Below are positions 57,384 through 63,529 of a stretch of 64,000 nt of DNA, piece by piece (positions within the stretch are counted from its first letter, which is position 1; every line of letters starts with the position of its first letter). The notes below the pieces were generated by a model. It had not been told where the DNA came from. It saw only the letters and a list, made by a program, of their open reading frames with translations, and searched no databases. The position numbers and the translations under genes were made by a program. This DNA is from a virus: positions 64,001 through 128,000 of the IMG/VR virus record IMGVR_UViG_3300021963_000029, one strand, 5' to 3'.

Positions 57384-58654
57384 TTTGCTACTCCATAAGA
57401 GTCTCTTACTAGTTCTAATCCAGTGAGACCTTTATCAGTGAAAGAATGCTTTAGTTTACTTATAATATATTTACCAGATTTGCTTTCGTCTTTTAAACCT
57501 TGTTCATCAGTATTCTTTGTAATTTTTCCAAAGTCAAGATTGATAACATCTCCCACTGTTAACCCCAAGTTTAGGGGTATAGTTATATTTAACGACTGAC
57601 TAAACAATAAATTGTATCTTGACACACCTTGTGCCTGATATTCCATTCTTTTATCTGGTGCTTCTAACTTACCAGTTTTATCCATCTGTCCATTGTCAAG
57701 CATTCTAACCATTAATCTTGAAGGACTATCTTGTAATCCTTTTGGTATTTCTGGAGAATTATCTTTATCAGAAGAATGATTCATGATCTCATAACTGTCT
57801 GATAACTTATAAACATTAGAATAAAATTTTCTAGTGTTAGTATCAAAGAAATAGTTTACACTAGAGTACATCCCTATTCTTAAATTGTCTAAAATGTTTA
57901 CATTCTTATTAAAAACAGGTGGAGAAGTAATCTTGAAATTTAATTTAGGATCAGCAGGTGCTGCTGTTATTTCTTTGTAAAAATATGTTTCCTTTGCTGG
58001 TCTATTAGAATCAAACAAAGAATCTACACTCTTAAAGTTGTATCCATCTTTGTTCTCAAAAAATAAAAATCCTGCAGTACCTTGTGTATTTCCTGACTTT
58101 CCTCTTTCTACTTGTGGTATTCCTTTAGGACATAACCATCCCAACACAGTGAATGGTTTCCTTGCATTGGACATGAAAGAATATTTGTTTATGGTCTTTT
58201 CTATATTGCTGCTATTATATCTTGTTGTCTTTAACTCATCTTTTAAAATTTTAGATACTGTATTATCTAATGTATTATCATATCTCTTAAACAATCTAGA
58301 TGTTTCATTGACAAACACTTCACTTGGAACTAAATCTAAGGTGAATAATTCTTTTGTAGATTCTGTCGTAGAGTTTCCAATATTATAAACATAATAGATG
58401 TTATCTGATTCATCAAAAGTCAATCTTAATTTAGTTGCATCTTGCTCAATAACTAATCTTACTATCTCTCCCCCTCTCAGTTTTAATTTGGAAAGGATGC
58501 CACCAGTGTTAATTACTGCCAAAGAAAAATATGTAACTGGAGATGTAATACTCTCAGTATATTCCATAGAAGAAATTGATTGAGATATATCAATAAATCC
58601 TTCCCCAGTTCCTATGGAACATTCTATAATTTTGTAATTAAAATATGATGCCAT
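57380..58654 (-). CDS. Baseplate hub protein (gp27-like)
   Basis: FLFFENKDGYNFKSVDSLF, LTVGDVI...SGKYIISKLKH; position in hub module. Confidence 0.7.
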   Translation of the reverse strand: MASYFNYKIIECSIGTGEGFIDISQSISSMEYTESITSPVTYFSLAVINTGGILSKLKLRGGEIVRLVIEQDATKLRLTFDESDNIYYVYNIGNSTTESTKELFTLDLVPSEVFVNETSRLFKRYDNTLDNTVSKILKDELKTTRYNSSNIEKTINKYSFMSNARKPFTVLGWLCPKGIPQVERGKSGNTQGTAGFLFFENKDGYNFKSVDSLFDSNRPAKETYFYKEITAAPADPKLNFKITSPPVFNKNVNILDNLRIGMYSSVNYFFDTNTRKFYSNVYKLSDSYEIMNHSSDKDNSPEIPKGLQDSPSRLMVRMLDNGQMDKTGKLEAPDKRMEYQAQGVSRYNLLFSQSLNITIPLNLGLTVGDVINLDFGKITKNTDEQGLKDESKSGKYIISKLKHSFTDKGLTGLELVRDSYGVAK

Positions 58655-60606
58655 TAACCTAAAGAGTTATAGTAGAGTTTTTTCAATAACATTTTATCTG
58701 CATCACTTTGAATATTTAGAGATGGTGACCCACCTGAAGAAACATATTGAATCTGTGGTGGCATGACAGGAATTGGAACTTGAACAGTTTGTGGTGGTAA
58801 TTCTGACATAGCCATTGTATAACTTTTTGATTTTACCAAGATTGATTGTAAAAGAGGAACATCAACATTCTTTAGGGGATCTCCTCCACTTGCAGTAAAA
58901 TTATTATCTAAGGGGATAACAGCTTCTGTGCCATGCAAAAATTCAAAGTAACCAGACTTTGGACCTACTGATATGCCACCTTCATTCTTTCCTTCTTTCG
59001 CTCTTTCAATAGAAAGAGGAGATGAAATTCTATTTTTAACACCTCTAACTACTGGAAGAGGATCAGTTGGAGTTTTTCCATCAGGATAAACCTCAAAGTG
59101 TAGGTGTGTATTGCCACCATCTGGATACAAAGTAGCTATTTGTTGTCCACCATAAACTACTTGCCCAACTGAAACACTAGGAACAACATGAACATATCTT
59201 GTTACTAGTCCACCACCATGATCTATTTCAACAACTCCTCTATATCCATTATTAGCTGCCTTAATTACTTTTCCTGTTTTATATGCAGCAACTGCAGCTT
59301 CTAGTGGTCCACTCCAATGAGTCATATCTAATCCAGCATGAGATCTACTTCCTCCATCTCTTGATGCTCCAAAACCTTGACTTGCACTGACCCTTCCTTG
59401 AGTTCCAACATCGCCTCCAGGTAAAGGCATAAAAGTATCACCAGAAATTGGACCATCATATGCTCCTCCTGGGGGAATATTAGGTGCTGCCATTGGAGCA
59501 CCTTCATTATATGGGTCAGAAGTGCTAACTGCTCCAGTAAAATTTAAAGCAAATCTTTCAAATTTAACCAATGCTTTTTCATAACTTACAAGAGTTTTTC
59601 CAAAAGTTAAATTACCACTTCCTTCTACTAATGCCTTCTGTTTTTCTGTTTGTGTTTTTAGTTTATCTTTGTTTTTATTTTTATTTTTTTCTTCTTCTGC
59701 AGCACTAACCCCAAGTAAATCTCTAGTAAGGTTAGTTAAATCTAATGCAAATGATGCAATGGATGCCAGTCCTGCAAGTGGAAGACCTATGCCTGTTGCT
59801 GCAGATCCAGCAGCAAAAGCATCTAAAGCAGCACCAGTCCCTGCTATTGCAGCACCAGTCTGATCTCCTGCCTGTGCTCTAAATGCAGCATCAGCAGCAC
59901 CAACAACTGCACCAACACCAGGAATAATTGAAGCACCAAATTTTCCAAATGCTTTTGCTGTTCTTCCTCCTTGAGTTGCAGTTTGAACTGCATTTCCTCC
60001 TTGTCTTGATCTTTTAAGAGCATCATTACCAAATCTTTTTTTAAAAGAATCATCACCATATCTAGATCTATATCTTTCCTGTGCGCCAGTAGATACTCTT
60101 CTTCCAGTAGCATCAAATCCTCTTCTAACTTTTGGTCCTTTATTGAAAAAAGCATCTCCTGCCATTCCTAACAACCCAGGACCTAATAATGCTGCAGCAG
60201 CAACCATTCCTGGTGACAATGCACCAAGGAAGTCTCCCTGCATTAATTTGTCTACTGAATTAAATGCTGCCAGTGCACCAAGTGATTTTAAAAAATCATC
60301 TGATGCTCCTGCAGTAAAAAAAGTCCCTTTAAACTTAGGTAAAGTTATTCCTTTTGGTTTTTGTTTTTGCTTTTTCCTATACTTATTGTCATTTTCTTTT
60401 TGGATAGAATCTAATCTTTTTTTGTATCTGTTTAAAACAGACAGTTGAGTTTTTCTTTGATATATTCCATTCTCAAAAGTTTTTCTTAGAGCAATAGAAG
60501 TCTTTTTAGTTTTGGTAGAAACTTTAACTAAAGGACTAATTGTAGTTACTTTAGCAACTACTGTTGGGGTTTCTTTTGGTTTTGCTAGTAAAGTTTGTGC
60601 GTCCAT
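58654..60606 (-). CDS. Tail (tape-measure-like) protein with M23 peptidase domain
   Basis: HAGLD (HxxxD), TRYVH, THLHFEV; helical, Ala/Gly-rich N-terminal half. Confidence 0.8.
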   Translation of the reverse strand: MDAQTLLAKPKETPTVVAKVTTISPLVKVSTKTKKTSIALRKTFENGIYQRKTQLSVLNRYKKRLDSIQKENDNKYRKKQKQKPKGITLPKFKGTFFTAGASDDFLKSLGALAAFNSVDKLMQGDFLGALSPGMVAAAALLGPGLLGMAGDAFFNKGPKVRRGFDATGRRVSTGAQERYRSRYGDDSFKKRFGNDALKRSRQGGNAVQTATQGGRTAKAFGKFGASIIPGVGAVVGAADAAFRAQAGDQTGAAIAGTGAALDAFAAGSAATGIGLPLAGLASIASFALDLTNLTRDLLGVSAAEEEKNKNKNKDKLKTQTEKQKALVEGSGNLTFGKTLVSYEKALVKFERFALNFTGAVSTSDPYNEGAPMAAPNIPPGGAYDGPISGDTFMPLPGGDVGTQGRVSASQGFGASRDGGSRSHAGLDMTHWSGPLEAAVAAYKTGKVIKAANNGYRGVVEIDHGGGLVTRYVHVVPSVSVGQVVYGGQQIATLYPDGGNTHLHFEVYPDGKTPTDPLPVVRGVKNRISSPLSIERAKEGKNEGGISVGPKSGYFEFLHGTEAVIPLDNNFTASGGDPLKNVDVPLLQSILVKSKSYTMAMSELPPQTVQVPIPVMPPQIQYVSSGGSPSLNIQSDADKMLLKKLYYNSLG

Positions 60607-60609
60607 TTA

Positions 60610-62625
60610 TTATCCAATAGCTCCAAGTATTCCCATCTGAGTTTCATAACTATACATATCAGATCTGTTGCTTGCACTAACACTTGCCAAAGCAGAACTC
60701 CCTGCTGGGTTAGCAGAACCAAGACCATCTGCTCCTGCCATTTGAGGAACTGGGATCACAGCAACTCTAGGTCCTGACCCTGCACTAGAAGATAATTGTC
60801 TTCCTTGTGGTCTTGCTGGTTGTGCTGGAGGGGCAGGTTGAGCAGGAGGAGGTGGAGCAGATCTTGCACCTAAACTTCTTCTACCTTCTTGTAAATCTCC
60901 TTGAGTGACTTTAGAATTAGTAGTCCAAGCAGACCATCCTGAACCTCTCAATACTTTTAAAGCTGCCTGAGCATTAGTCACTGGATCCTTTAGTTGCTCA
61001 TAATTTGTAATTCCAAATTCTTGCATTCTTGCTGGTCCAAGTCTTCCTATCATATTAATTTGCCACAGACCATATGAATTGTCAGATCCTCCTCTGAGAT
61101 AACTATCATTGTGAGCACCAGCTCTACCACCAGATTCATACTTTGCAATAGCAGCTAATCTTACTGCTTCCTCATCAGTAGCTCCAACTTTTTTAGCAAG
61201 ATCTACAAGTTGTGCATTATTAAATTGAGGACCAGTGACAGTACCTCTCATTGATGGATCCATGTTAACTTCACCTGTTCCAATAGGAGGATTAGGTGTT
61301 TGTTGTGCACCTGCTCCTCCTCCACCGCCTCCACCACCCCCACGATCTTTCTTAGTTAGAAGTAGTTCTACTGCCTTTTCAAATTTTTCATTTAAAGTTT
61401 GAAACTTTTTAAGATCAGTTTGTGTTATAGTTCCTATTGCATCTGAAGTTAATGCTTTTTGCTCTGCAGTAACCTCTTCAAGTCTTGTTTGTGAGGCATC
61501 AACTTCTCCTTCTTCTCCTTGTGATGCTGCAAAAGCACCACCCAAAGCAAGAGCACCAGTGCCAAGTGCTGCCATCTTACCAAACTTACCTATACCAATA
61601 CCAGGACCTCTTGACATTCCTCCAGGGACTCTTGGTGTTCTAGCACCAAACATATTTTTACCAAATCCTTTGAGCAGACTTTTTAATACTGCTCCAGCAA
61701 CCATTGCTCCTATCTGAGGTAGGAAAGTAATTCCTATACCCATAAAGGATTTAAAAACTTGTCCCCAGTCTCCTCTAACTAAAGCATCTAATAAATTAAA
61801 TGCTGCTAATGATCTAATGGCACCACCAACTCCAGAAAAGAAATTACCAACAAATGGTTTTATAATATCTTTTAATTCTTTTTTATTATCTCCAAGATCT
61901 TTTCTTGGAAGTTTTCTTCCTCTATTTGCTACTCTCTTTCTATAGTCTTCTATTTCTTTTTTATTAGTTTCTTTAGTTTGCTTATAGTCTTCTTCTATTA
62001 TTTCTTTAATTCTATCTAAGTTGTCTCCAATTTGAACAAGATCTAAAGTTAATCTTCCTAATGAAGATGAAATTGCTTTTGGAGCTACTGGTCCTTGAGA
62101 TTCTTCTGAAGTAGCTGCCTGAGAAACCCCTGCAGGAACAGCTCTTTTGGGAACTATCCCTGTCATTCTGGTAGTTTTTAATGCTACTTTTCTTCCAGGT
62201 CTAAAGGTAGATTCAGGTCTAGAAATAAATGATTGTGCTTTCTGTTTTTTTTGTTCTTGTATTTCTTTTAATCTAGATTCTATTGCAGCATCTTCAATCT
62301 TTTGATTGGTTTGTTGCTGGAATGGTTTCTCAAGAAACTCTTCTACCAACCATTTCTGATATGCTTCATTGTTATATGCTCCACCATACTTATCATTTTG
62401 ATTTAGTTGTGGATACTTACCATACTTCTTGATATTTGCAATCAATCTATCTGCATCAGCATTACTAAGTTTTGTATAAGATGTAAAGTTCTCTCTTAAC
62501 CCTTCAACTTGTCTACCAGTTAATCTACCTTTTAATCTTGCCCAAGTTATTTCACCAACCTTATTAGCAGGCCAATAAGGTTGCTGTGGATCTAATATTC
62601 CTTCTGGTGGTGATGTAATATTCAT
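60610..62625 (-). CDS. Tail (tape-measure-like) protein with lysozyme/SLT-like domain
   Basis: AIAKYESGG...SYGLWQIN...DPVTNAQAA...GWSAWT. Confidence 0.8.
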   Translation of the reverse strand: MNITSPPEGILDPQQPYWPANKVGEITWARLKGRLTGRQVEGLRENFTSYTKLSNADADRLIANIKKYGKYPQLNQNDKYGGAYNNEAYQKWLVEEFLEKPFQQQTNQKIEDAAIESRLKEIQEQKKQKAQSFISRPESTFRPGRKVALKTTRMTGIVPKRAVPAGVSQAATSEESQGPVAPKAISSSLGRLTLDLVQIGDNLDRIKEIIEEDYKQTKETNKKEIEDYRKRVANRGRKLPRKDLGDNKKELKDIIKPFVGNFFSGVGGAIRSLAAFNLLDALVRGDWGQVFKSFMGIGITFLPQIGAMVAGAVLKSLLKGFGKNMFGARTPRVPGGMSRGPGIGIGKFGKMAALGTGALALGGAFAASQGEEGEVDASQTRLEEVTAEQKALTSDAIGTITQTDLKKFQTLNEKFEKAVELLLTKKDRGGGGGGGGGAGAQQTPNPPIGTGEVNMDPSMRGTVTGPQFNNAQLVDLAKKVGATDEEAVRLAAIAKYESGGRAGAHNDSYLRGGSDNSYGLWQINMIGRLGPARMQEFGITNYEQLKDPVTNAQAALKVLRGSGWSAWTTNSKVTQGDLQEGRRSLGARSAPPPPAQPAPPAQPARPQGRQLSSSAGSGPRVAVIPVPQMAGADGLGSANPAGSSALASVSASNRSDMYSYETQMGILGAIG

Positions 62626-62810
62626 CTATTTGCTTTAGCAGCTTTTTCTTCCTCTTCTCTTATATAATTTTCTAACAGGGAAAGATAAATCTCTCTTTCC
62701 CATGGAATCATATTTTCAATCTCTGTCAAAGAGTATTTATGATGCTGCATCAAGGCAAAATTAGTTCTATAGTATGCCTCTAGATCTTCATGACCAAGGA
62801 CTAACCGAAA
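62622..62810 (-). CDS. gp51: gp51-like hub assembly protein frame; no canonical start before ATG 62750, probably reached by -1 frameshift
   Basis: GHEDLEAYYRTNFALMQHHKYSLTEIENMIPWEREIYLSLL in the -1 frame of gp26. Confidence 0.8.
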   Translation of the reverse strand, partial: FRLVLGHEDLEAYYRTNFALMQHHKYSLTEIENMIPWEREIYLSLLENYIREEEEKAAKANR

Positions 62811-63529
62811 AAACTGGACAATCCCTCCAGAACAATCTCATTGTCTTTTCCAGTAACTGGATTCTTGACTGTCATAGTGTGAGTTAGTTTTGGCATAGTA
62901 TCAAAGAAAGTTTCAATTTGTTTAAATTGATTTGAATCAAAAGTTTCCAACCACTCTACCAATTCTTTTTTGGTTACGTCACTACCAGACCAAGTTTCAT
63001 CTGCAGTGTATACCATATCAATACATGATGCAACAATTTCAAAAGACTTATTGATAGTTTCTTTGCTACTGTTAGCATTAAAATTAAAGTTATTATCAAT
63101 AAACTCTTGGAGAGATGGGTACTTCATCTTCACCATAATTTTATCATCTACTTTGATTTCAGATGTATGTTCCTCTGGGAACTTAACTTCAATGTCTGTA
63201 ATGTCAACAGAACATTCTACTTGGGTTTCTCCATCATCAGGACAAGTGATTACAAGTTCTACTGCTTCCCCAACAGACTTTGCTCTGATGTTCAGGAACA
63301 GATACTCAATATCAAAACTTGGAAGAGTATCAATTCTAATTCCTTTTGTTAAGACACATTCCTTCAAAACATTTTTAACTGCTCTGGTGATCTCTTCAGA
63401 ACTATTGCTCTCCATAGCAAGGATAAGAATCTTTTCCTCTTTGACTAGGAAAGGTCTATATGAAATTTTCTTTTTGTTTGAAGGTAAAATCAACTCATAA
63501 GTTGGAGTTGCAATCTTTGGTAAAGGCAT
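62801..63529 (-). CDS. gp26: Baseplate hub assembly protein gp26
   Basis: MPLPKIATPTYEL...YRPFLVKEEKIL...DIEYLFLNIRAKSVGE...CPDD...LEGLSSFF. Confidence 0.9.
   Translation of the reverse strand: MPLPKIATPTYELILPSNKKKISYRPFLVKEEKILILAMESNSSEEITRAVKNVLKECVLTKGIRIDTLPSFDIEYLFLNIRAKSVGEAVELVITCPDDGETQVECSVDITDIEVKFPEEHTSEIKVDDKIMVKMKYPSLQEFIDNNFNFNANSSKETINKSFEIVASCIDMVYTADETWSGSDVTKKELVEWLETFDSNQFKQIETFFDTMPKLTHTMTVKNPVTGKDNEIVLEGLSSFFG

What the first reader, a model, noticed from the sequence alone, without database searches (positions are those of the whole stretch)
62622..62830. Probable programmed -1 frameshift fusing gp26 to gp51, immediately upstream of the tape-measure-like genes
Seen: gp26 ends GGA TTG TCC AGT TTT TTC GGT TAG. 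The gp51-like sequence (HEDLEAYYRTNFALMQHHKY...) lies in the -1 frame. That frame is closed by a TGA 8 codons before the slip site and has no ATG/GTG/TTG until TTG-ATG at about 62750, which would cut off the HEDLEAYYRTNFA part. A textbook slippery heptamer T TTT TTC (62807-62813) sits two codons before the gp26 stop, and an SD-like GGAGG (62824-62828) lies 10 nt upstream. Established: an internal SD about 10 nt upstream stimulates -1 slippage in E. coli dnaX, and lambda G/GT-type tail chaperone genes frameshift just upstream of the tape-measure gene. Inference: the phage makes gp26 (242 aa) plus a roughly 302 aa gp26-gp51 fusion, making the pair a G/GT-like chaperone. In T4 these are separate genes.
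Basis: partly seen in the sequence, partly recalled or inferred. Interest (0 to 1): 0.85.

Follow-up and report, generated by a model that had tools for sequence, protein, structure and literature searches.

The report
Frameshift in baseplate-hub chaperone gene
One tail-assembly gene of this complete 181-kb T4-like cyanophage very probably makes a 242-residue and a 302-residue protein because some ribosomes slip back one base on an invariant TTTTTTC; T4 makes this pair from two genes (26 and 51), and reviews name T4 as the exception to the tail-chaperone frameshift.

Summary
gp26 (62801-63529, minus strand) ends SFFG-stop, and T TTT TTC sits at 62807-62813. The gp51-like frame is the -1 frame. 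It has no ATG, GTG or TTG for 18 codons after the slip site.

The heptamer alone is not rare: 16 copies in the window against about 29 expected. Its conservation is what counts. It is invariant in 85 of 85 cyanomyovirus loci, while other invariant Phe codons mix TTT and TTC. It recurs in distant T4-like phages of Aeromonas, Vibrio, Stenotrophomonas, Delftia and Rhizobium.

T4-type gp51 (250 aa) aligns along its whole length with the predicted fusion. The genome (CheckV 100% complete) has no other gp26 or gp51 copy.

The N-terminal domain of gp26 best matches the three solved tail assembly chaperones (Z 6.4-7.3, the top three of 48,161 chains). The next two genes look like tape measures.

This window's clade differs from most relatives. 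It has lost both the gp51 AUG and the downstream hairpin, so frameshifting is its only visible route to the extension.

This scan noted the same signal earlier in at least 86 other genomes. I found no paper reporting it.

The parts
62801..63529 (-). gp26 ORF in the zero frame, 242 aa. This is the short product. It has an N-terminal TAC-like domain (about residues 1-95) plus a second domain.
   Evidence: ORF list. Pfam PF12322 T4_baseplate E 3.7e-74. phrog_150 positions 5-232 of 282. Fold of residues 1-100.
62824..62828 (-). SD-like GGAGG, with 10 nt between it and the heptamer. It lies within the Leu-Glu-Gly codons.
   Evidence: Sequence. GGAGG is present in 47 of 71 non-redundant relatives. 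The Glu codon here is GAG in 60 of 71, while gene-wide usage is GAA 1215 to GAG 422.
62807..62813 (-). Slippery heptamer T TTT TTC (X XXY YYZ in the gp26 frame). This is the proposed -1 shift site.
   Evidence: Sequence. Invariant in 85/85 loci. The third bases of all three codons have zero entropy in 71 sequences below 90% nt identity.
62801..62803 (-). Zero-frame stop TAG, one codon after the heptamer.
   Evidence: The stop lies exactly 3 nt after the heptamer in 71/71 non-redundant relatives.
62838..62840 (-). TGA that closes the -1 frame eight codons upstream of the FF codons.
   Evidence: Translation. In five relatives this stop lies directly 5' of TTT TTT, which confines the shift to the heptamer.
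62622..62807 (-). -1 frame extension (gp51-like): 61 codons plus the TGA stop. Joined to gp26 residues 1-241 it gives a 302-aa fusion.
   Evidence: phrog_634 E 1.3e-31 and phrog_150 positions 227-278. Its residues 1-46 align to T4-type gp51 residues 201-245, E 9e-7. In the start-less stretch the codon differences are 59 synonymous to 43 non-synonymous, against 37:77 and 13:99 in the other two frames.
60610..62625 (-). Tape-measure-like gene 1 (671 aa, SLT lysozyme domain). Its ATG overlaps the stop of the -1 frame (ATGA).
   Evidence: The start overlaps or abuts the gp51-frame stop in 61 of 64 relatives that could be scored. The S-CREM2 counterpart is 1565 aa.
58654..60606 (-). Tape-measure-like gene 2 (650 aa, M23 peptidase domain).
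   Evidence: phrog_11440 is shared with gene 1. The S-CREM2 counterpart is 1456 aa.

Best explanation
Most ribosomes translating gp26 stop at TAG (62801-62803) and release the 242-aa protein. A minority slip back one base when the two Phe-tRNAs sit on T TTT TTC (62807-62813). They then read the -1 frame and add 61 residues, giving a 302-aa gp26-gp51 fusion. The upstream GGAGG may raise the slip rate by pairing with the 16S rRNA tail, as in E. coli dnaX. The adjacent zero-frame stop may also help. In this phage's clade the fusion is the only way to express the gp51-like extension.

Function (inferred, about 0.65): the short and long forms are the T4-superfamily counterparts of lambda gpG and gpGT. 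The shared N-terminal TAC-fold domain would hold the tape-measure-like proteins encoded immediately downstream. The helical extension, present on a small fraction of molecules, would link them to another hub or tube component during hub and tail initiation. T4 itself makes the two forms from two paralogous genes, 26 and 51.

Shown here: the sequence anatomy, the conservation, the homology to T4 gp51, the fold match and the gene order. Inferred: the slip itself, its rate, and the binding partners.
For: 1. Nucleotide-level selection. The heptamer is invariant in 85/85 loci. In 71 sequences below 90% nt identity the last base of the preceding codon is always T, across AGT, TCT, GAT, GCT and AAT. 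The Phe pair is always TTT TTC. Nine other conserved Phe columns all mix TTT with TTC, in ratios from 68:3 to 24:47.
2. The same or an equivalent heptamer sits at the same place in distant lineages: Aeh1 group, Aeromonas phage 65, a KVP40-like phage, Stenotrophomonas Ps15, Delftia PhiW-14 and S-CREM2 (T TTT TTC); Melnitz and L095-97 (T TTT TTT); Rhizobium P9VFCI (T TTT TTG).
3. The extension is always in the -1 frame. Seven of 71 relatives have no start codon near its beginning. L007 has none in 30 codons. Aeh1, phage 65 and Melnitz also lack one.
4. The start-less 18 codons evolve as coding sequence in the -1 frame.
5. T4-type gp51 consists of PF12322 (residues 1-201, E 3.5e-54) plus a tail. 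It matches phrog_150 over positions 13-281 of 282 and aligns along its whole length with an in-frame natural fusion and with the window's extension.
6. The genome is 100% complete by CheckV and has a single PF12322 gene and a single gp51-like segment.
7. Fold. For window gp26 residues 1-100 (pLDDT 86), the top three of 48,161 chains are the HK97 tail assembly chaperone 2ob9 (Z 7.3, rmsd 3.4, 84 residues aligned), 3fgx (Z 6.9) and 3klu YqbN (Z 6.4). The next unrelated row scores 4.1. Foldseek independently ranks 2ob9 first (prob 0.89). A separate model of a fusion gave the same top three. PMC9603447 describes all three as tail assembly chaperones.
8. Gene order: two virion-type proteins with lysozyme or peptidase domains follow. 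Their S-CREM2 counterparts are 2.3 times longer in a phage with a 418-nm tail (tail length from the abstract listed).
9. T4 gp26 and gp51 are listed as hub assembly chaperones, and gp51 is absent from the particle (PMC3004832).
Against: This window's clade has no significant downstream RNA structure (z 0.4; consensus -3.6 kcal/mol with no covariation; the weakest MFEs of 70 relatives). The slip rate here may therefore be low.

The SD-like GGAGG overlaps conserved Leu-Glu-Gly codons and is absent in 24 of 71 relatives.

Most relatives (62 of 71) have an ATG for an independent 57-aa gp51, so a free small gp51 may be the functional form there.

The fold Z-scores are below 8, the level at which the tool warns of common arrangements. 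gp26 is also about twice the size of typical gpG proteins.

The tape-measure identity of the downstream genes is inferred.

The in-frame fusions found in metagenomes are all singletons and could be homopolymer errors.
Confidence: 0.8

Rival explanations
1. There is no frameshift. The gp51-like ORF is translated on its own, either from the internal TTG/ATG at 62753/62750 (a 42-43 aa peptide), or from a non-canonical start, or by reinitiation after gp26 terminates.
For: 62 of 71 relatives have an ATG two to six codons after the slip site, and GenBank records annotate a separate 57-aa gp51. Vibrio phages D524 and K474 have an ATG and no heptamer.
Against: In this window the first start codon would remove 17-18 conserved residues that evolve under coding constraint in the -1 frame. 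I saw no SD-like motif before that ATG when reading the sequence. L007 has no start in 30 codons. This reading does not explain the invariant heptamer, nor why T4 gp51 aligns with the fusion along its whole length.
Confidence: 0.08
2. Transcriptional slippage. RNA polymerase adds one U in the T6 run, so a fraction of the mRNAs encode the fusion in a single frame.
For: The site is a homopolymer. Some relatives have T7 or longer runs (Melnitz, L095-97). Metagenome proteins with an exact ...FFR... junction exist (P0003, P0031).
Against: From general knowledge, six T is short for productive bacterial RNA polymerase slippage, which usually needs about nine. The conserved unit is frame-specific (X XXY YYZ, with C, T or G tolerated only at Z). 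The preceding wobble base is always T. Both fit tandem tRNA re-pairing. No RNA reads could be examined.
Confidence: 0.06
3. The heptamer is conserved for a reason unrelated to recoding, such as a Phe-Phe protein motif with a fixed codon choice or a U-rich translation enhancer. The extension would then be untranslated or vestigial in this phage.
For: Phe-Phe is invariant at the protein level. In-frame T TTT TTC also occurs by chance elsewhere (60145-60151).
Against: Nine other conserved Phe columns all vary between TTT and TTC. The preceding codon changes its amino acid but never its last base. The extension is conserved as protein and is homologous to an essential T4 protein.
Confidence: 0.04
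4. An assembly or sequencing indel in the homopolymer has split a single gp26-gp51 gene.
For: In-frame fusions of about 300 aa exist in metagenome gene calls.
Against: 85/85 independent loci, including finished isolate genomes, have the same T6 run and the same frame relation. The fusions are singletons.
Confidence: 0.02

Closest known systems
Lambda gpG/gpGT and the conserved -1 frameshift of tail assembly chaperone genes in long-tailed phages (Levin 1993 and Xu, Hendrix and Duda 2004, as cited in PMC5009743)
   Same: Two overlapping ORFs just upstream of tape-measure-type genes. A heptamer lies near the end of the first ORF. The second ORF is in the -1 frame and, in this phage, has no start of its own. 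The shared part has the TAC fold (Z 6.4-7.3 to 2ob9, 3fgx and 3klu).
   Different: No sequence similarity. gp26 is about twice the size of gpG and carries a second domain. The heptamer is T TTT TTC, not G GGA AAG. The family had been annotated as baseplate hub subunit or catalyst. T4 is named as the exception to this frameshift.
Phage T4 gp26 (208 aa) and gp51 (249-250 aa), hub assembly chaperones (Leiman et al. 2010, PMC3004832)
   Same: Same Pfam family, PF12322. T4-type gp51 has the same layout as the predicted fusion, a gp26-like domain followed by a helical tail, and aligns with it from end to end.
   Different: T4-type phages encode the two forms as two divergently transcribed paralogous genes. 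They have no heptamer (GAA TTC TTT GAG) and gp25 follows gp26. Here one gene is proposed to make both forms.
E. coli dnaX -1 frameshift signal (upstream SD-like element, heptamer, downstream hairpin)
   Same: The SD-like GGAGG has 10 nt between it and the heptamer. Most cyanomyovirus relatives also have a 9-14 bp hairpin starting 5-8 nt after the heptamer, with compensatory changes.
   Different: This window's clade lacks the hairpin. The heptamer is U-rich and read by Phe-tRNA rather than A AAA AAG read by Lys-tRNA. In relatives the hairpin also buries the gp51 AUG.

Membership tests
G/GT-type tail assembly chaperone frameshift | Second ORF in the -1 frame, overlapping the end of the first and lacking its own start | tested here: met
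   There is no ATG, GTG or TTG for 18 codons after the slip site in the window.
G/GT-type tail assembly chaperone frameshift | [quoted passage not shown] | tested here: met
   Invariant in 85/85 loci, with zero third-base entropy in 71 non-redundant sequences. Equivalent heptamers occur in distant T4-like phages.
G/GT-type tail assembly chaperone frameshift | Located immediately upstream of the tape measure gene | tested here: inconclusive
   The two genes that follow (671 and 650 aa) carry SLT and M23 domains and have no family name. Their S-CREM2 counterparts are 1565 and 1456 aa, virion proteins in a phage with a 418-nm tail. This fits a tape measure role but does not prove one.
G/GT-type tail assembly chaperone frameshift | The G part has the tail-assembly-chaperone fold | tested here: met
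   For window gp26 residues 1-100, the top three of 48,161 chains are 2ob9 (Z 7.3, rmsd 3.4, 84 aligned), 3fgx (Z 6.9, rmsd 3.2, 80 aligned) and 3klu (Z 6.4, rmsd 4.3, 86 aligned). The best unrelated row scores 4.1. Foldseek ranks 2ob9 first at E 0.12. The result repeated on a second model. The Z-scores are below 8, so this shows a shared fold, not proven homology.
G/GT-type tail assembly chaperone frameshift | Both products are made, at a low long-to-short ratio, and neither is in the virion | not testable with these tools
   Only the literature on T4 bears on this: gp51 is required for assembly but is absent from the particle.
T4 gp26/gp51 family (Pfam PF12322 T4_baseplate) | Match to the family profile above the curated cut-off | tested here: met
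   249.5 bits against a cut-off of 24.5.
T4 gp26/gp51 family (Pfam PF12322 T4_baseplate) | The extension is homologous to the C-terminal tail of T4-type gp51 | tested here: met
   BLASTP E 9e-7, extension residues 1-46 against gp51 residues 201-245. Both match phrog_634 and the end of phrog_150.
dnaX-type tripartite -1 frameshift signal | SD-like element about 10 nt 5' of the heptamer | tested here: met
   GGAGG at 62824-62828. The GAG codon is used in 85% of relatives here against 26% gene-wide.
dnaX-type tripartite -1 frameshift signal | Stable hairpin a few nt 3' of the heptamer | tested here: not met
   In the window the fold z-score is 0.4. The clade consensus is -3.6 kcal/mol with no covariation. 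The feature is met in most relatives: median MFE -11.4 kcal/mol, and 78.6% of cells paired against 26-47% in slid controls.

The most novel reading that the evidence does not exclude
The frameshift meters more than the chaperone ratio. The start codon of the first tape-measure-like gene overlaps the stop of the -1 frame (ATGA here; overlap or abutment in 61 of 64 relatives). In this start-less, hairpin-less clade, only ribosomes that slipped on TTTTTTC reach that junction. The slip rate would then set, through translational coupling, how much tape-measure protein is made per gp26. On this reading the T4 superfamily's gp26/gp51 pair is the ancestral G/GT system, which T4 later resolved into two genes.
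Probability: 0.15. Interest if true: 0.8.

Novelty: new member of a known kind. Interest (0 to 1): 0.72.

Why it matters
The -1 frameshift in tail assembly chaperone genes is regarded as nearly universal in long-tailed phages. A major review of frameshifting names T4 as the exception (PMC5009743).

This locus, its 85 cyanophage relatives and several distant T4-like phages indicate that the T4 superfamily does have the system. It sits in genes annotated as 'baseplate hub subunit gp26' and 'hub assembly catalyst gp51'. T4 itself appears to be a derived case with two separate genes.

[quoted passage not shown] It also means that hundreds of cyanophage and other T4-like genome records probably miss a roughly 300-aa product.

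This clade, with no gp51 AUG and no hairpin, is a clean natural case for testing whether the fusion alone is sufficient.

Tried and rejected
1. A downstream stimulatory hairpin or pseudoknot in this window was sought and not found. The hairpin seen in relatives does not apply here.
2. Sequence search of a natural in-frame fusion (P0031) against PDB chains found nothing. Foldseek on the whole-fusion model also gave nothing significant. Only the exhaustive aligner and the domain-only model showed the TAC fold.
3. The helical extension (fusion residues 241-300) matched only generic helical hairpins (Z 4-5), so no inference was drawn.
4. Natural in-frame fusions from metagenomes were considered as proof of the fusion. 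I set them aside because all are singletons and some have odd junctions.
5. Single-protein scans with Aeh1 and Ps15 gp26 found only close relatives. Breadth was therefore sampled from isolate genomes instead.
6. Literature searches used these term sets: gp26/gp51/frameshift; gp51/slippery; baseplate hub assembly/frameshift/T4-like; gp26/gp51/tape measure/chaperone; gp29/gp26/gp51/tail assembly chaperone. None returned a report of this slip. Subscription-only papers are not covered.
8. Pfam PF28602, listed for the extension in the precomputed hits, is not in the local Pfam copy (one search found no family for the extension).
Full report
**What is there**

All features lie on the minus strand. 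A 242-aa ORF (62801-63529) belongs to Pfam T4_baseplate (PF12322, E 3.7e-74) and to phrog_150 'baseplate hub', matching profile positions 5-232 of 282. It ends GGA TTG TCC AGT TTT TTC GGT TAG.

The frame one base back is open from a TGA at 62838-62840 to a TGA at 62622-62624. From the slip site on it reads RLVLGHEDLEAYYRTNFALMQHHKY... This 61-residue stretch matches phrog_634 'baseplate hub assembly catalyst' (E 1.3e-31). It also matches the last part of the gp26 profile, phrog_150 positions 227-278 (E 1.4e-10). The first ATG, GTG or TTG of that frame after the slip site is the TTG-ATG at 62753/62750, codons 18-19.

**Is it more than chance?**

The heptamer alone is not. TTTTTTC occurs 16 times in the window against 28.7 expected, and one more copy is in frame in a neighbouring gene. 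The conservation is decisive.

I fetched 80 related loci from IMG/VR and four isolate genomes (P-SSM2, S-PM2, S-PRM1, DSL-LC03). All 85 sequences have xxT TTT TTC, followed by one codon and then the stop.

After removing sequences above 90% nucleotide identity, 71 remain. At amino-acid identities down to 57%, the third bases of the three heptamer codons never vary.
- The preceding codon is AGT, TCT, GAT, GCT or AAT, so it always ends in T.
- The Phe pair is always TTT TTC.
- Nine other conserved Phe columns of the same gene all mix TTT with TTC, in ratios from 68:3 to 24:47.

The Glu codon inside the SD-like GGAGG is GAG in 60 of 71 sequences, although the gene overall prefers GAA 1215 to 422. 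GGAGG itself is present in 47 of 71.

**Breadth**

The same arrangement occurs far outside cyanophages.
- T TTT TTC: Aeromonas phages Aeh1 (and relatives L092-94) and 65, a KVP40-like Vibrio phage, Stenotrophomonas Ps15, Delftia PhiW-14 and the long-tailed cyanophage S-CREM2.
- T TTT TTT: Methylophilales phage Melnitz and contigs L095-97.
- T TTT TTG: Rhizobium phage P9VFCI.

The heptamer is absent in two groups. One is the Vibrio phages D524 and K474, where the small ORF has its own ATG. The other is the T4-type phages, where gp25 follows gp26.

**Does the extension need the shift?**

Of the 71 non-redundant relatives, 62 have an ATG two to six codons after the slip site. This is the ATG that GenBank records annotate as the start of a 57-aa gp51. 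Two have only a TTG there, and seven have nothing. The seven include the window and its closest relatives (L005, L007, L008, L010) as well as DSL-LC03 and L081. L007 has no start codon in the first 30 codons. Aeh1, phage 65 and Melnitz also lack one.

In five sequences a -1-frame stop lies directly 5' of TTT TTT. The zero-frame stop is always 3 nt after the heptamer. Together these confine the frame change to the heptamer.

Within the start-less clade, the 18 codons before the first possible start differ mostly synonymously in the -1 frame. Codon differences are 59 synonymous to 43 non-synonymous there, against 37:77 and 13:99 in the other two frames.

The genome is a 180,814-base virus record rated 100% complete. 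It contains one PF12322 gene and one gp51-like segment, so no separate T4-style gp51 exists.

**Relation to T4**

In the T4-type phage RB51, genes 26 and 51 are divergently transcribed. gp51 (250 aa) is itself a PF12322 protein (residues 1-201, E 3.5e-54) with a C-terminal tail. It covers phrog_150 positions 13-281 of 282. It aligns along its whole length with a 300-aa in-frame natural fusion from a metagenome, straight through the junction. Its residues 201-245 align with residues 1-46 of the window's extension (E 9e-7).

So T4 gp26 corresponds to the short product and T4 gp51 to the predicted long product. The T4 tail review lists both as hub assembly chaperones. [quoted passage not shown]

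**Is it G/GT-like?**

A model of a natural fusion was confident (pLDDT 89.6, pTM 0.85). It has a low-confidence linker at the junction and a three-helix extension. A model of the window's own gp26 residues 1-100 had pLDDT 86.

An exhaustive structural comparison against 48,161 chains gave these top three for the window's domain:
- the HK97 tail assembly chaperone 2ob9 (Z 7.3, rmsd 3.4, 84 of 104 residues aligned);
- 3fgx (Z 6.9);
- 3klu, YqbN (Z 6.4).

Next came a Vibrio PLE protein at 4.8, and unrelated chains scored 4.1 or less. Two further phage entries, lactococcal p2 ORF12 (3d8l) and a YuA protein (3pes), appeared at ranks 13 and 16. From memory these are also tail assembly chaperones; I did not check this. 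Foldseek independently ranked 2ob9 first (E 0.12, prob 0.89), with 3fgx at rank 4. The fusion model gave the same top three. PMC9603447 states that 2OB9, 3KLU and 3FGX are all tail assembly chaperones. The Z-scores are below 8, so I claim a shared fold, not proven homology.

Downstream lie a 671-aa protein with an SLT lysozyme domain and a 650-aa protein with an M23 peptidase domain. After them come a 424-aa protein matching phrog_350 'tail protein', whose S-CREM2 counterpart is annotated 'baseplate central spike', and then a gp5-like hub and lysozyme protein. In S-CREM2, whose tail is about 418 nm (abstract listed), the two corresponding genes encode virion proteins of 1565 and 1456 aa. That is 2.3 times longer, as expected of length-determining proteins. 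This is supportive but indirect.

**How this window differs from most relatives**

Most cyanomyoviruses have a 9-14 bp hairpin that starts 5-8 nt after the heptamer.
- The median MFE of the 48 nt downstream is -11.4 kcal/mol, with a median z-score of -2.5.
- On the 70-sequence alignment, 78.6% of cells are paired, against 26-47% when the partners are slid.
- Compensatory changes occur, such as U-A to G-C in ten sequences.

The 5' arm of this hairpin contains the gp51 AUG. The window and its start-less relatives have the weakest folds of the set (-2.3 to -8.3 kcal/mol, z -0.6 or higher). They have no conserved structure. The AUG and the hairpin have therefore been lost together. Here the signal is reduced to the heptamer, the SD-like element and the adjacent stop. 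The slip rate cannot be predicted from this.

**Coupling to the next gene**

The ATG of the 671-aa gene overlaps the stop of the -1 frame (ATGA at 62622-62625). In 61 of 64 relatives that could be scored, the start of the downstream long ORF overlaps or abuts that stop, by -14 to 0 nt. This suggests translational coupling between the gp51 frame and the first tape-measure-like gene. I did not test it further.

**Literature and earlier notes**

[quoted passage not shown] Six searches of the held library found no report of a gp26/gp51 frameshift. Subscription journals are not covered.

This scan's own notebook holds 97 earlier notes in at least 86 other genomes with the same reading. I took from them two leads, the 'except T4' quotation and the T4 gp26/gp51 comparison, and checked both myself.

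**Limits and verdict**

Nothing here shows the protein.

A programmed -1 ribosomal frameshift is the best explanation (about 0.8). The G/GT-type chaperone role is a well-supported inference (about 0.65). In kind, this is a new member of the known tail-chaperone frameshift class, in the one phage group thought to lack it.

Noticed in passing
window 62622-62625 (-); loci L001-L084: The ATG of the first tape-measure-like gene overlaps the TGA of the gp51 frame (ATGA). In 61 of 64 relatives the downstream start overlaps or abuts that stop (-14 to 0 nt). This suggests translational coupling of the tape-measure-like gene to the -1 frame.
   Followed up: partly
alignment A1 columns 39-48 and 58-67; loci L001-L084: In most cyanomyoviruses the hairpin after the heptamer carries the gp51 AUG in its 5' arm. 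The sequences that lack the AUG (the window, L004-L010, L026) also lack the hairpin. S-PM2 has a different 14-bp hairpin at the same place.
   Followed up: partly
window 58654-62625 (-): There are two tandem tape-measure-like genes rather than one: 671 aa with an SLT domain and 650 aa with an M23 domain. Both hit phrog_11440. S-CREM2 (418-nm tail) has the same pair at 1565 and 1456 aa. Whether both set tail length is open.
   Followed up: partly
window 60145-60151 (-): A second in-frame T TTT TTC lies inside the 650-aa M23 gene (GCT TTT TTC). I did not check its conservation or the -1 frame there.
   Followed up: no
proteins P0003, P0031, P0002, P0028 and others: Metagenome gene calls include in-frame gp26-gp51 proteins of about 280-302 aa, all singletons. 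Two have exactly the predicted ...FFR... junction. They may be homopolymer errors or real T7 variants. They are probably why the phrog_150 profile extends to 282 positions.
   Followed up: partly
L090 (Vibrio phage D524), L103 (Vibrio phage K474): These roughly 157-kb Vibrio phages have gp26 and a small gp51-like ORF with its own ATG(s) but no slippery heptamer. They look like a natural 'unlinked' state between the frameshift form and T4's two full-length genes.
   Followed up: no
(precomputed Pfam column): A Pfam family PF28602 is recorded on the gp51-like segment of many hits but is absent from the local Pfam copy. I could not read its name or description.
   Followed up: no
PDB 5ir0 (fold search): ORF19 of the Vibrio cholerae PICI-like element ranks just below the three tail assembly chaperones (Z 4.8; Foldseek rank 2). 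It may itself have a TAC-like fold.
   Followed up: no
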